A stretch of DNA of 64,000 nt from Escherichia phage CJY920: sequence record PQ349265.1; one strand, 5' to 3'. The notes under the pieces are model-generated. The model saw only the letters and a list, made by a program, of their open reading frames with translations, searched no databases and was not told where the DNA came from. The position numbers were made by a program, and so were the translations under genes. Each line of letters begins with the position of its first letter. Within the stretch, counting starts at the first letter, position 1. Below, piece by piece: positions 28,530 through 40,153 of the stretch.

Positions 28530-28530
<1 letters not shown>
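28288..28530 (-). CDS. 67: prohead core protein gp67 (highly acidic)
   Basis: 80 aa with long D/E run. Confidence 0.75.
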
Positions 28531-30155
<1,625 letters not shown>

Positions 30156-30187: not shown

Positions 30188-30679
30188 TTATTCCCAATAA
30201 TCGAGAGCGAGAGTTACTTCAAAGGTTTGGATTTCATTGTTTGAATCCCAATCTAATTGAAGTTCACCCACGTTAGTAGGCCACAAGCCTTTAATTTCGA
30301 CTTCTTTTGTTACAGTTTTAGCGTCACGAGCATATTGGCGAACAACAGCGCTCTTTTTATATTCTGCTGGTTTTCCACCAGTAATTTCGTTCCCTTGCCC
30401 AGCAGCAATGCTTTGCCAATCAACAAACTTCTGGCGAGCATCATGTGCTTCATCGTTCATTACTGTAATAGTCCAGTCATCGAATGTACGATCGCCTGCT
30501 ACGTTAATTTTACGGTTCATAAATCCGACTGGAATTTTTTCTACAATACCAGCTGGTAAAGCAGTGGCTTTACATTGAAACGTAAAATTTTGTCCAAGAT
30601 AAGAAATTTCTACTTGGAATAAGTTAGGTCGAGCAAAATCACCAGATTCAAACGCTCGTGTTACATCATCTACAAACAT
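30188..30679 (-). CDS. 19: tail tube protein gp19
   Basis: 163 aa matching T4 gp19. Confidence 0.9.
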   Translation of the reverse strand: MFVDDVTRAFESGDFARPNLFQVEISYLGQNFTFQCKATALPAGIVEKIPVGFMNRKINVAGDRTFDDWTITVMNDEAHDARQKFVDWQSIAAGQGNEITGGKPAEYKKSAVVRQYARDAKTVTKEVEIKGLWPTNVGELQLDWDSNNEIQTFEVTLALDYWE

Positions 30680-30693
30680 ATTAGCCTCTGTAG

Positions 30694-30701
30694 TATTTAT
30701 A
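30694..30701 (-). promoter_or_regulatory. late promoter TATAAATA (minus strand) for gene 19
   Basis: Plus-strand tatttata; a second copy at 30753-30760. Confidence 0.5.
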
Positions 30702-30761
30702 TCCCTATGTTTAACCTAGGGCATATAGAATTAAAGAATTAAGGATATAGTGTATTTATAT

Positions 30762-30779
30762 GGCCTGCCGAAACAGGCC
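30762..30779 (-). terminator. hairpin (GGCCTG-ccgaaa-CAGGCC) downstream of inserted HNH gene
   Basis: Read directly. Confidence 0.45.
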
Positions 30780-30786
30780 TTTAGAA

Positions 30787-31278
30787 TCATTCTAGTAAAT
30801 CCCAAAGATCTACGCTATTTCTTTTTGACTTTTCTCGGTTAGATTCCCAAGTGATTATTTCTAAATTTTTTACGCTTGCTATAATTTCCGGCGGAATTAA
30901 ATTATCAAATCCATATTTGATAGATACTTTATGATCGAGTTGGTAAGCACCTTCTACACCGCACACTCCTATTTTATCAGCATTCGGCCATTTTGACCAA
31001 ATTTTTCTTATTTTAGCTGACTTAGTTATAGAATGAACTCTACTAGCATATAATGCAAACTCTTTTCTTTTACCAGTCCATCGAGGATGTTTATCGCCTC
31101 TTTGCCATGGTCTGCTTATTCCGGATTGAACTTCCGAATTTTTAATAGCAACTTGTTTAATACTACATTTTCTACATGCATGTGTGGGTGTTCTATTTAA
31201 AAGCTGAATGCTTCTACTAAATTTAATACCGCACAAATCACATTTAGCGTCAACTATTTTATTACTATTCTTTGGCAT
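30787..31278 (-). CDS. HNH-family homing endonuclease-like protein with N-terminal zinc finger (163 aa)
   Basis: CDLCG...HACRKC zinc finger; YQLDHK...NLEIITWESN HNH-like motif; lies between genes 18 and 19. Confidence 0.65.
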   Translation of the reverse strand: MPKNSNKIVDAKCDLCGIKFSRSIQLLNRTPTHACRKCSIKQVAIKNSEVQSGISRPWQRGDKHPRWTGKRKEFALYASRVHSITKSAKIRKIWSKWPNADKIGVCGVEGAYQLDHKVSIKYGFDNLIPPEIIASVKNLEIITWESNREKSKRNSVDLWDLLE

Positions 31279-31410
31279 TAATTCTATTGGAACAGATACT
31301 GTATCATGTTATGATACTTTATATCCTAGAATTGTCGACCACATTTTTGAATGATTTCTTGGTTTTATTGTAACAAACTTAGAAATAATCACTTGTTTCC
31401 TCGAGAATAG

Positions 31411-31424
31411 GGGCCGAAGCCCCA
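31411..31424 (-). terminator. hairpin (GGGGC-cgaa-GCCCC) downstream of gene 18
   Basis: Read directly. Confidence 0.45.
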
Positions 31425-31431
31425 CAATCAA

Positions 31432-33411
31432 TTAACCTGCAAGACCAGTTAACTCATCGAAATCTGCGCCAGTAGCAGTTGCGACGAAATTAAGTTGGAT
31501 ATAATTTATACTACGAGCCGGTTGGATGTAGAATGTTGCAACAAACTCATTTCTATCAATTACTGACGGAGTGTTATTTGTTGTATCGCAAACTACACGA
31601 TATTCATAAATTCCACCGAGAGCTTTAATTCCCTGTAAGTATTGGGCAGTTTCTGTGCGGAATGATGAACGAGTAAACGCGTTGTTTAATTCGAATAAAC
31701 GATATTTTGAACTACGTCCGATATTCGTTTTCAACATATTAAACAGACGACGAACGTTAATACGATCAAATGGAGAAGGAACAGAAGTAGCTGTTTTATC
31801 ACCATACAATACGTAACCATCACCACCTGTACCGGTTACCGGGTTGATAGCTTCTTGATATAAACGGTCGCGCTGAGCCTGGCGAGTTTCAATAGCAAGT
31901 TTAATAACGTTAAGAATCTGGCCGCGATTATAACCAGCTGGAGACATCCAAGTCTGAGAAACGTTATCAGTTCTTGCGCATAAACCTGCAATATCAGCTG
32001 CTAATGGAACCCAGCGATTTACATCATTATATTTGTCATACTGATATTTGTAGTTACCATCAATTGCTGCATAGGTTGAACTGATATTAAAGTTATTATC
32101 AGTGTATGAACCTGCTGCAGTTCTCCAATTGACTAAGTTATCAACAGCACGAGTTACAGGAATTCCAACTACAGTTTCACGCGGTGGTGAGCACAATACT
32201 AAGCAATCTTGGCGAGCATCCCCAATTGAAACGACGTGTTTTTGGACAGTAGATGCTGTTTCTAAAGATTCACCGGCACAAGAACCCGCAATAAACAACT
32301 GAACGTCAACAGATTCACGGTCAGCAAAGAAGTCCCAGGCTTCCATCAAATCTCCTGCTGTTACTTCAGCATTTGATGATAATCCACCAGACAGAGTTAA
32401 AATTCCAGAGAAGCCTTCTGGCCAGTTTTGCGCAGTTGCAAAAATATATTCTGAACCACCTTTTGCGAAAAAGTCATCAATATAGATGTTGCTATCGTAA
32501 ATATCTTTTTCACCACGCTTTGTTGAAAGAACAACGCTTTGAACAATAGCATCATTACGACGAACTATAATAGCGTATTGTGAATCAGTTTGTGGTCCAT
32601 ATCCAAACACTGCTTTGGCAGTAGATGCGCGTGTTCCGCCACCTGGATAAATTGGGAGTAATGCAGAAGCTCCTTTTGCGTAGTCAGCTTTAGATACAAT
32701 TTCGATTTCAATTTTATCGCCTAACTCGCCTGGATAAAGAGCTACTACTCCTGGAATTCCATATTTTTCGAGATTTGCTTGAAATTCAACCGCTGTCACA
32801 GCAGCTTCAGCATTTTCAATTTCAGCTAATAAAATACCGGAATCAGTAATAATTTTTCCAAGAGTTATTACTGCAGCTAAACCAGAGGAAGACGAAGAAA
32901 TTTCCGCGGTCCAGTTAGAACCTAATGCTGGATATTCACCGACTTCTTTCGCTTTAGCGATAATTTTTGCGGTAGGAATATTAATTTTCTTAATTTTTCC
33001 ATCAGCATCTACTTCGGTAATTTTACCCTCTGTTTCAACATTTTCTGAAACATACTTAACCGTGATTTTATCTCCAACCGCGTAGTTACTACCTGGGGCT
33101 GAAATAGTGTATTCAATATTACCAGCAATCGGAGATGAGTTTTTAGCGGTATCTCTATCGACAGCACGCACAACTCGCAAATCATTTCCATATTGTAAGA
33201 AATTCATTGCAGACATAAAATAATCAGCAGTTTCAGCTGTAGGTTGACCAAAAGTATTAACTAAATCTACTTCATTTGTAACCTGTTTAATCTGAAAAGC
33301 AGGACCCCACTGGAATTTACCGGCCAAAGCTGCTGTACCAGTAGAGTTATTAACAACGGTGCTTTGAACCGTAGTTTCTTTGAGCTCAATGCCCGGAGAT
33401 AATAAAGTCAT
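31432..33411 (-). CDS. 18: tail sheath protein gp18
   Basis: 659 aa matching T4 gp18. Confidence 0.9.
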   Translation of the reverse strand: MTLLSPGIELKETTVQSTVVNNSTGTAALAGKFQWGPAFQIKQVTNEVDLVNTFGQPTAETADYFMSAMNFLQYGNDLRVVRAVDRDTAKNSSPIAGNIEYTISAPGSNYAVGDKITVKYVSENVETEGKITEVDADGKIKKINIPTAKIIAKAKEVGEYPALGSNWTAEISSSSSGLAAVITLGKIITDSGILLAEIENAEAAVTAVEFQANLEKYGIPGVVALYPGELGDKIEIEIVSKADYAKGASALLPIYPGGGTRASTAKAVFGYGPQTDSQYAIIVRRNDAIVQSVVLSTKRGEKDIYDSNIYIDDFFAKGGSEYIFATAQNWPEGFSGILTLSGGLSSNAEVTAGDLMEAWDFFADRESVDVQLFIAGSCAGESLETASTVQKHVVSIGDARQDCLVLCSPPRETVVGIPVTRAVDNLVNWRTAAGSYTDNNFNISSTYAAIDGNYKYQYDKYNDVNRWVPLAADIAGLCARTDNVSQTWMSPAGYNRGQILNVIKLAIETRQAQRDRLYQEAINPVTGTGGDGYVLYGDKTATSVPSPFDRINVRRLFNMLKTNIGRSSKYRLFELNNAFTRSSFRTETAQYLQGIKALGGIYEYRVVCDTTNNTPSVIDRNEFVATFYIQPARSINYIQLNFVATATGADFDELTGLAG

Positions 33412-33439: not shown

Positions 33440-37600
<4,161 letters not shown>

Positions 37601-37641: not shown

Positions 37642-40153
<2,512 letters not shown>

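What the first reader, a model, noticed from the sequence alone, without database searches (positions are those of the whole stretch)
30680..31431. Self-contained HNH endonuclease cassette inserted between tail sheath (18) and tail tube (19)
A 163-aa HNH-like protein with an N-terminal zinc finger (30787..31278) lies between genes I recall as adjacent in T4. It is flanked by its own hairpins (31411-31424 after gene 18; 30762-30779 after the HNH gene) and a duplicated late promoter box before gene 19 (30753-30760 and 30694-30701). The layout looks like a freestanding homing endonuclease that brought or duplicated promoter and terminator signals so that gene 19 expression is kept.
Basis: partly seen in the sequence, partly recalled or inferred. 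Interest (0 to 1): 0.5.

Follow-up and report, generated by a model that had tools for sequence, protein, structure and literature searches.

The report
Known T6-type homing endonuclease gene, broken
The gene between the tail sheath and tail tube genes is the optional "ORF19.1" selfish nuclease gene long known from phage T6, here cut short by a premature stop codon; the promoters and second hairpin beside it are ordinary T4 sequence, so the finding is real but ordinary.

Summary
T4 lacks the gene. Compared with T4 and RB14, a 644-nt block (30788-31431) replaces 8 nt (TACGGTGC) right after the gene 18 stop.

Three corrections:
2. The 108 nt before gene 19 are identical in T4 and RB14, which have no insert. 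This stretch holds the hairpin at 30762-30779 and both TATAAATA boxes, so they are native and not brought or duplicated.
3. The insert has no promoter. It carries only a UUCG hairpin, a ribosome-binding site and the ORF.

Verdict: a free-standing HNH homing endonuclease gene, already catalogued but never tested, and probably inactive in this phage.

The parts
31432..33411 (-). Gene 18 (tail sheath), upstream neighbour. Its TAA stop (31432-31434) is the left edge of the insertion.
   Evidence: ORF list. Annotated as gp18 in T6, RB14 and T4.
33440..33447 (-). TATAAATA late-promoter box before gene 18. It is the nearest upstream late promoter that could drive transcription into the insert.
   Evidence: There is no other box on the - strand between 30761 and 33439.
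30788..31431 (-). The inserted block: 644 nt that replace TACGGTGC of insert-less T-even genomes.
   Evidence: Junctions of 10 insert-carrying and 6 insert-less phages share the same two boundaries. GC is 0.335, against 0.395 for gene 18 and 0.392 for gene 19.
31410..31423 (-). Element-borne stem-loop GGGGC-UUCG-GCCCC, directly after the gene 18 stop and upstream of the ribosome-binding site. It has no T-run.
   Evidence: It is absent from insert-less genomes. A stable hairpin occupies the same place in the four other loci examined: the same hairpin sequence in Shewanella phage Thanatos-2, and different sequences in myPSH1140, L011 and L012.
31399..31402 (-). Shine-Dalgarno GAGG, 6 nt before the GTG start.
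30787..31392 (-). Full ORF19.1 reading frame: 201 codons plus TGA. It is intact in T6 and DCP2 and interrupted in this window.
   Evidence: The PHROG 5104 match starts at profile position 46 of 228 for the 163-aa ORF.
31309..31311 (-). In-frame TAA (codon 28) where T6, DCP2 and Aplg8 read TAT (Tyr). A single-base nonsense change.
   Evidence: None of 62 GenBank records is identical over 31280-31340; the best have one mismatch.
30787..31278 (-). Residual 163-aa ORF, starting at Met39 of the full protein. There is no Shine-Dalgarno sequence before this ATG.
31165..31242 (-). C4 zinc finger (C13, C16, C35, C38 of the 163-aa ORF).
   Evidence: Near-invariant cysteines. Weak DUF4379 treble-clef and zinc-ribbon hits in relatives. 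Two strands plus a helix in the model.
30829..30936 (-). HNH-type (beta-beta-alpha-metal) core: D115-H116 ... N138 ... N147-R-x-K150.
30762..30779 (-). Native T4 stem-loop with a UUCG loop. Not part of the insert.
   Evidence: Identical in T4 and RB14. Fold z = -3.2.
30753..30760 (-). Native late-promoter box 1 before gene 19.
30694..30701 (-). Native late-promoter box 2 before gene 19.
30188..30679 (-). Gene 19 (tail tube), downstream neighbour.

Best explanation
This is the T6-type ORF19.1 element: a promoter-less, free-standing HNH homing endonuclease gene.

What is shown:
- The insert consists of a stem-loop, a ribosome-binding site and a 201-codon ORF.
- It sits immediately after the gene 18 stop, upstream of the native gene 18/19 hairpin and the two native late promoters. 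Gene 19 therefore keeps its own signals untouched.
- The protein has an N-terminal beta-alpha-beta plus C4 zinc-finger module, a helical linker and a C-terminal HNH (D-H...N...N) active site.
- In this phage a T-to-A change made codon 28 a TAA stop.

What is inferred:
- The N-terminal module binds DNA.
- The intact enzyme is made late, from read-through of the gene 18 transcript, and the stem-loop attenuates that read-through.
- In mixed infections it nicks or cuts the uninterrupted 18/19 junction of insert-less relatives (...GGTTAA-TACGGTGC-ATTCTAAAGG...). Repair then copies the gene in.
- The window copy yields at most a 27-residue peptide plus poorly initiated 163-aa protein that lacks two strands and a helix of the N-terminal module. 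It is most likely an inactive, freshly decaying copy.
For: Insertion and boundaries:
- T4, RB14, RB59, HY01, AR1 and Shinka read TAA+TACGGTGC+ATTCTAAAGG.
- Ten carriers have 644-656 nt between the same two boundaries.

Sporadic distribution:
- 117 of 676 matching phage records span the insert.
- 69 carry allele A and about 49 carry allele B. The remaining matches of 90% identity or more cover only the last 108 nt.

Nuclease fold:
- D115, H116, N138 and N147 are invariant across 79 homologues of 26-58% identity, besides one 99% copy.
- The AF2 models are confident (pLDDT 88.7 and 93.4) and show a strand-strand-helix core.
- PF01844 and PF13395 are the two most frequent Pfam families among the isolated C-terminal domains (9 and 7 of 47, best E 3.7e-4).
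- Three of the 79 relatives scanned carry NUMOD3 modules, which are typical of homing endonucleases.

Site fidelity:
- Homologues of 38-63% identity lie between gp18 and gp19 in Karamvirus myPSH1140, Shewanella phage Thanatos-2 and two metagenomic T4-like contigs.

No promoter:
-. This matches the 'promoter-less cassette' habit of seven T4 seg/mob genes, and the hairpin just before the ribosome-binding site of seg43(25) (PMC2988022).

Target at the junction:
- No base within 1400 nt on either side separates the 10 carriers from the 6 non-carriers.

Decay:
- The TAA is found in none of 62 records.
- DCP2 encodes the same protein apart from Tyr28.
- Pu-Krd-SF6 has an independent Gln89 stop.
- Residues 1-38 are conserved and fold at pLDDT above 92.
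Against: - No curated profile (Pfam, NCBIfam) reaches threshold for the window protein.
- Foldseek against the PDB found nothing, and the profile search of PDB sequences gave only zinc-finger or leucine-rich-repeat noise.
- No cleavage, homing or expression data exist in the library I could search.
- Insertion cannot be told from precise deletion by comparison alone.
- The nonsense codon could be a sequencing error.
- Re-initiation at Met39 cannot be excluded.
Confidence: 0.72

Rival explanations
1. The block is an ORF cassette moved by ordinary homologous recombination at stem-loop or promoter motifs (PeSL-type modular shuffling). The protein's nuclease plays no part in its spread.
For: - The insert begins with a GGGG...CCCC stem-loop, the motif described for PeSLs (PMC2839356).
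- In myPSH1140 and contig L012 the homologous gene is preceded by a strong sigma-70-type promoter plus stem-loop (10/12 and 11/12 matches). That is a complete PeSL.
- The native site also holds a UUCG stem-loop.
- Alleles A and B are mosaics that share only their ends.
Against: - The two flanking stem-loops share only about 6 nt.
- The insert-less junction carries 8 nt (TACGGTGC) found in neither flank of the insert, so simple loop-to-loop recombination does not give the observed products.
- The HNH residues are invariant over thousands of relatives, which argues that the nuclease is under selection.
- The locus is in the conserved virion module, not a hyperplastic region.
Confidence: 0.12
2. 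The gene is ancestral at this site, and T4-type genomes lost it by deletion. The pattern reflects loss rather than invasion.
For: The same site is occupied in at least three genera and in metagenomic relatives, so the association is old. Nonsense alleles show that loss of function is going on.
Against: - About three quarters or more of Tequatrovirus records lack it, all six examined with the same clean 8-nt junction.
- Flanks of carriers and non-carriers are interleaved, with no fixed differences. This needs repeated exchange rather than one old deletion.
- The two views are not exclusive: the homing cycle includes loss.
Confidence: 0.1
3. The protein is a domesticated nuclease that serves the phage, for example by excluding competing phages or processing DNA, rather than a purely selfish element.
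For: HNH nucleases have been recruited for phage functions. T-even homing enzymes are known to cause marker exclusion of relatives, and SegB aids immune escape in T6 (PMC13096335).
Against: It is dispensable: it is absent from T4 and most relatives, and two independent nonsense alleles occur in viable isolates. It shows no linkage to any partner gene.
Confidence: 0.08

Closest known systems
[not shown]
   Same: Same gene, same site and same boundaries, at 98-99% nucleotide identity. Other records label the same gene 'HNH endonuclease' (Ptacy1496) or 'homing endonuclease' (ADUt, allele B). Petrov et al. 2010 count one 'other HNH' putative homing endonuclease gene in T6 (PMC2993671). Whether that entry is ORF19.1 is my assumption.
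   Different: The window copy has a TAA at codon 28.
T4 MobA-E and I-HmuI-type HNH homing endonucleases
   Same: Free-standing HNH genes in intergenic sites of T-even genomes. Several are promoter-less and ride on upstream transcripts. [quoted passage not shown]
   Different: The Mob proteins have the HNH domain at the N-terminus and a C-terminal DNA-binding region (PMC2988022). Here the order is reversed (zinc finger first, HNH last). The window protein shows no PF13392 (HNH_3) or NUMOD4 hit, and only 1 of 47 related C-terminal domains hits HNH_3, at E 0.59.
Gme HNH (4h9d) and phage GVE2 HNH (5h0o) nicking endonucleases; Cas9 HNH domain
   Same: These are the best structural matches to the C-terminal domain. 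The motif DH-x21-N-x8-NRxK has the same Asn-to-Asn spacing as I recall for SpCas9 N854/N863 (from memory). A Cas9 HNH chain gave the only nuclease match by sequence (E 0.58).
seg43(25) of Aeromonas phage 25 and the PeSL cassettes of RB49/phi1
   Same: A stable hairpin lies immediately upstream of the ribosome-binding site without sequestering it (PMC2988022). A GGGG..CCCC stem-loop acts as a transcription attenuator next to a mobile ORF (PMC2839356).
   Different: The window copy has no early promoter. Relatives in myPSH1140 and L012 do.

Membership tests
HNH / beta-beta-alpha-metal nuclease superfamily | Catalytic His (usually D-H) at the end of the first strand | tested here: met
   D115-H116 is invariant in alignments of 38, 79 and 85 homologues and lies in predicted strand 112-116.
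HNH / beta-beta-alpha-metal nuclease superfamily | Structural Asn, then a metal-binding Asn or His in the following helix | tested here: met
   N138 and N147 are invariant. N147 lies in helix 144-150.
HNH / beta-beta-alpha-metal nuclease superfamily | Fold similarity to solved HNH nucleases | tested here: met
   [not shown]
HNH / beta-beta-alpha-metal nuclease superfamily | Match to a curated HNH sequence profile above threshold | tested here: not met
   The window protein has no HNH hit in Pfam or NCBIfam. Relatives give only sub-threshold PF01844 and PF13395 hits (best E 3.7e-4). The family is outside current curated models.
HNH / beta-beta-alpha-metal nuclease superfamily | Metal-dependent DNA nicking or cleavage | not testable with these tools
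   Needs biochemistry.
Free-standing homing endonuclease gene | Present or absent at one precise intergenic site among close relatives whose flanks are otherwise the same | tested here: met
Free-standing homing endonuclease gene | The enzyme cuts the allele that lacks the gene, while the carrier allele is immune | not testable with these tools
   Indirect only: the insertion itself is the sole consistent difference between carriers and non-carriers within 1.4 kb.
Free-standing homing endonuclease gene | Super-Mendelian inheritance with co-conversion of flanking markers in mixed infection | not testable with these tools
   Needs phage crosses.
T4 Mob / I-HmuI-type HNH endonucleases | N-terminal HNH_3-type domain with C-terminal NUMOD-type DNA-binding modules | tested here: not met
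   The window protein has no HNH_3 or NUMOD hit; among related C-terminal domains HNH_3 appears once, at E 0.59. The catalytic domain is C-terminal.
PeSL regulatory cassette | Strong sigma-70-type early promoter joined to a stem-loop upstream of the ORF | tested here: not met
   Only the stem-loop is present in the window. Both parts are present in relatives L004 and L012.
Intact ORF19.1 | Uninterrupted 201-codon frame from the GTG | tested here: not met
   TAA at codon 28.

The most novel reading that the evidence does not exclude
ORF19.1 stands for a large HNH lineage that has never been tested experimentally and is missed by Pfam and NCBIfam (6391 cluster representatives at E <= 1e-3).

- Its architecture is reversed relative to the Mob enzymes: zinc-finger recognition module first, nuclease last.
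- One sub-branch has tracked the sheath/tube junction across at least three named genera of T4-like phages plus metagenomic relatives.
- That sub-branch swaps recognition modules between two alleles, and swaps its expression signals between lineages: none, an early promoter with stem-loop, or late-promoter boxes.
- The window copy would then be a snapshot of the first step of the decay phase of the homing cycle.
Probability: 0.4. Interest if true: 0.35.

Novelty: already known. Interest (0 to 1): 0.2.

Why it matters
- It adds one more homing-type nuclease to the T-even inventory and shows that current profile libraries miss its family.
- Its target, if confirmed, would be a compact intergenic site between two essential tail genes. 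That would be useful as a marker-exclusion or engineering handle in T-even phages.
- For annotation, the 163-aa ORF in this genome should be labelled as a disrupted copy of gene 19.1.
- The promoters before gene 19 should be read as native T4 late promoters.

Tried and rejected
- Pfam, NCBIfam and single-sequence PDB searches of the 163-aa protein gave only zinc-finger noise and a chance Prim-Pol match.
- Profile searches of PDB sequences with the whole family picked up mitoribosomal zinc-finger proteins. With the C-terminal domain alone they picked up leucine-rich repeats, because the segment IGxxxNLQxLxxxxN mimics a repeat. Neither result is meaningful.
- Foldseek against the PDB returned nothing below E = 1. 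The afdb50 library was unavailable.
- A sigma-70-like match inside the ORF (31338-31311, 10/12) is not above chance: 7 sites found against 6.1 expected.
- I looked for single-base differences tied to presence of the insert, as would protect a distant target site. There were none within 1400 nt on either side.
- Literature searches for ORF19.1 or for an 18/19 homing endonuclease found no experimental paper.

Full report
**What is there.** The window is a T6-like Tequatrovirus segment with the virion genes on the minus strand:
- gene 20 at 28530-30116
- gene 19 at 30188-30679
- the 163-aa ORF at 30787-31278
- gene 18 at 31432-33411

The closest record over 1.8 kb is Escherichia phage DCP2 (98.8%). 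T6, PST and many others follow at about 98%. TATAAATA occurs 23 times in the window against 10.3 expected by chance.

**It is an insertion relative to T4, with sharp edges.** T4's own junction reads GGTTAA-TACGGTGC-ATTCTAAAGGCCTGTTTCGGCAGGCCATATAAATA...TATAAATACTACAGAGGCTAATATG. RB14, RB59, HY01, AR1 and Shinka have the same 8-nt filler and the same boundaries (AR1 differs at one base inside the native hairpin). Ten carriers have 644-656 nt in place of TACGGTGC between the same two boundaries: the window, T6, DCP2, PST, Aplg8, Pu-Krd-SF6, vB_SsoM_113, ADUt, RB3 and HY03. The insert is therefore window 30788-31431. Its GC content is 0.335, against 0.39-0.40 for genes 18 and 19.

**What the insert does and does not carry.**
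- The 108 nt at 30680-30787 are identical in T4 and RB14, and 98-100% identical in the insert-less records listed. This stretch includes the hairpin at 30762-30779, a second weak hairpin and both TATAAATA boxes.
- These signals are native to T4. They are not imported and not duplicated by the insertion.
- The insert lies upstream of them, so gene 19 keeps its own promoters regardless.
- Inside the insert there is no TATAAATA. The nearest one upstream on this strand is 33440-33447, before gene 18.
- No sigma-70-type promoter stands above chance.
- The insert contributes only a GGGGC-UUCG-GCCCC stem-loop just after the gene 18 stop, a GAGG ribosome-binding site, and the ORF.

[quoted passage not shown] It also matches the hairpin placed just before the ribosome-binding site of seg43(25) (PMC2988022). 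A stable hairpin at this position is conserved in relatives. Shewanella phage Thanatos-2 has the same GGGGCTTCGGCCCC, and myPSH1140, L011 and L012 have different sequences. In myPSH1140 and L012 the hairpin is joined to a strong early-type promoter (10/12 and 11/12 matches with TG). That is a PeSL-like unit, whose stem-loop acts as a terminator or attenuator in RB49/phi1 (PMC2839356). L011 instead has TATAAATA boxes. Expression signals thus differ between lineages, and the window copy has none of its own.

- In the window the same frame runs from GTG 31392. Codon 28 is TAA (31311-31309), where T6, DCP2 and Aplg8 read TAT.
- DCP2 encodes an otherwise identical protein.
- A 61-nt probe centred on this base finds 62 records. 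None is identical, and the best have one mismatch.
- The missing 38 residues are conserved across the family (MIISKxVxxK...LGY). In the full-length model they form a strand-helix-strand at pLDDT above 92, within the N-terminal part that precedes the zinc finger.
- The PHROG 5104 match of the 163-aa ORF starts at profile position 46.
- No ribosome-binding site precedes the ATG at 31278.
- Pu-Krd-SF6 carries an independent stop at codon 89.

The window copy is therefore most likely a recently inactivated allele, unless the TAA is a sequencing error.

**Is it an HNH nuclease?**
- Curated profiles say nothing about the window protein.
- The family is large: 6391 representatives at E <= 1e-3. In 79 homologues, all but one of them at 26-58% identity, only C16, D115, H116, N138 and N147 are invariant. 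C13, C35, C38, W144 and K150 are nearly so.
- The models place D-H at the end of strand 112-116, N138 before strand 139-143, and N147 in helix 144-150. That is the beta-beta-alpha-metal layout.
- Scanned alone, 9 of 47 C-terminal domains hit PF01844 and 7 hit PF13395. All are below threshold, but these are the two commonest families.
- Three of the 79 relatives scanned carry NUMOD3 modules.

I take the HNH assignment as well supported, but not by a curated profile. The architecture (zinc finger first, nuclease last) is the reverse of the Mob enzymes.

**Distribution and mobility.**
- 117 of 676 matching records span the insert.
- 69 carry allele A, and about 49 carry allele B (ADUt, RB3 and HY03; 216 codons as annotated in ADUt, 205 in RB3 and HY03).
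- The remaining matches of 90% identity or more cover only the native 108 nt.
- Alleles A and B share the first 60 nt and the last 210 nt or so at 90% identity or more. The 390 nt encoding the N-terminal module are only about 40% identical.
- Homologues of 38-63% identity lie between gp18 and gp19 in Karamvirus myPSH1140 (unannotated there), in Thanatos-2 and in two metagenomic T4-like contigs.
- Among 10 carriers and 6 non-carriers, no base within 1400 nt on either side is fixed between the two classes.

The only consistent difference is the insertion itself. This points to a recognition site that spans the insertion point. That conclusion is an inference.

Noticed in passing
window 33443-36295 (-): The large terminase gene 17 is split. 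The N-part (35402-36295) ends ...[14 protein letters not shown]...(41 aa) and then stops. A 206-aa ORF (34816-35436) has a Tn7 TnsA-like endonuclease domain (PF08722, E 8e-10). The C-part (33443-34828) starts with 107 extra residues ending ...[17 protein letters not shown]4 reads [17 protein letters not shown] without interruption, and the extein parts are 255/256 and 349/354 identical to T4. This looks like a split intein with a free-standing endonuclease gene in between, the 'fractured gene' type of Dassa et al. 2009 (PMC2677866). Only 16 of 493 T-even records have it. Thanatos-2 gp17 is split in a similar way.
   Followed up: partly
L014 (Escherichia phage Pu-Krd-SF6), ORF19.1: An independent nonsense codon (Gln89 to stop) in the same gene, plus a 2-nt indel in the native 18/19 spacer. 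The gene is left unannotated in that record.
   Followed up: partly
L004 2198-2980 (Enterobacter phage myPSH1140, NC_055739): An intact 199-codon homologue of ORF19.1, with an early-type promoter and stem-loop, is not annotated in the RefSeq record. The same phage also has about 650 nt of unannotated DNA between genes 19 and 20.
   Followed up: partly
L010 1345-1965 and L012 5268-5843: Extra ORFs of 206 and 191 aa with no Pfam hit lie between gp19 and gp20 in two metagenomic T4-like contigs. This suggests a second variable site next to the tail tube gene.
   Followed up: no
window 38414-38674 (-): An 86-aa ORF rich in CxxC/HxxxC pairs ([13 protein letters not shown]...CPHCG...CPHCS...). It overlaps the start of the neighbouring 267-aa virion-gene ORF (37642-38445). 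It could be a small zinc-finger protein or a remnant of a mobile gene.
   Followed up: no
L016 (Shigella phage vB_SsoM_113), hairpin after gene 18: One extra C in the 3' arm of the element-borne hairpin (GGGGCTTCGGCCCCC), giving a 645-nt insert.
   Followed up: no
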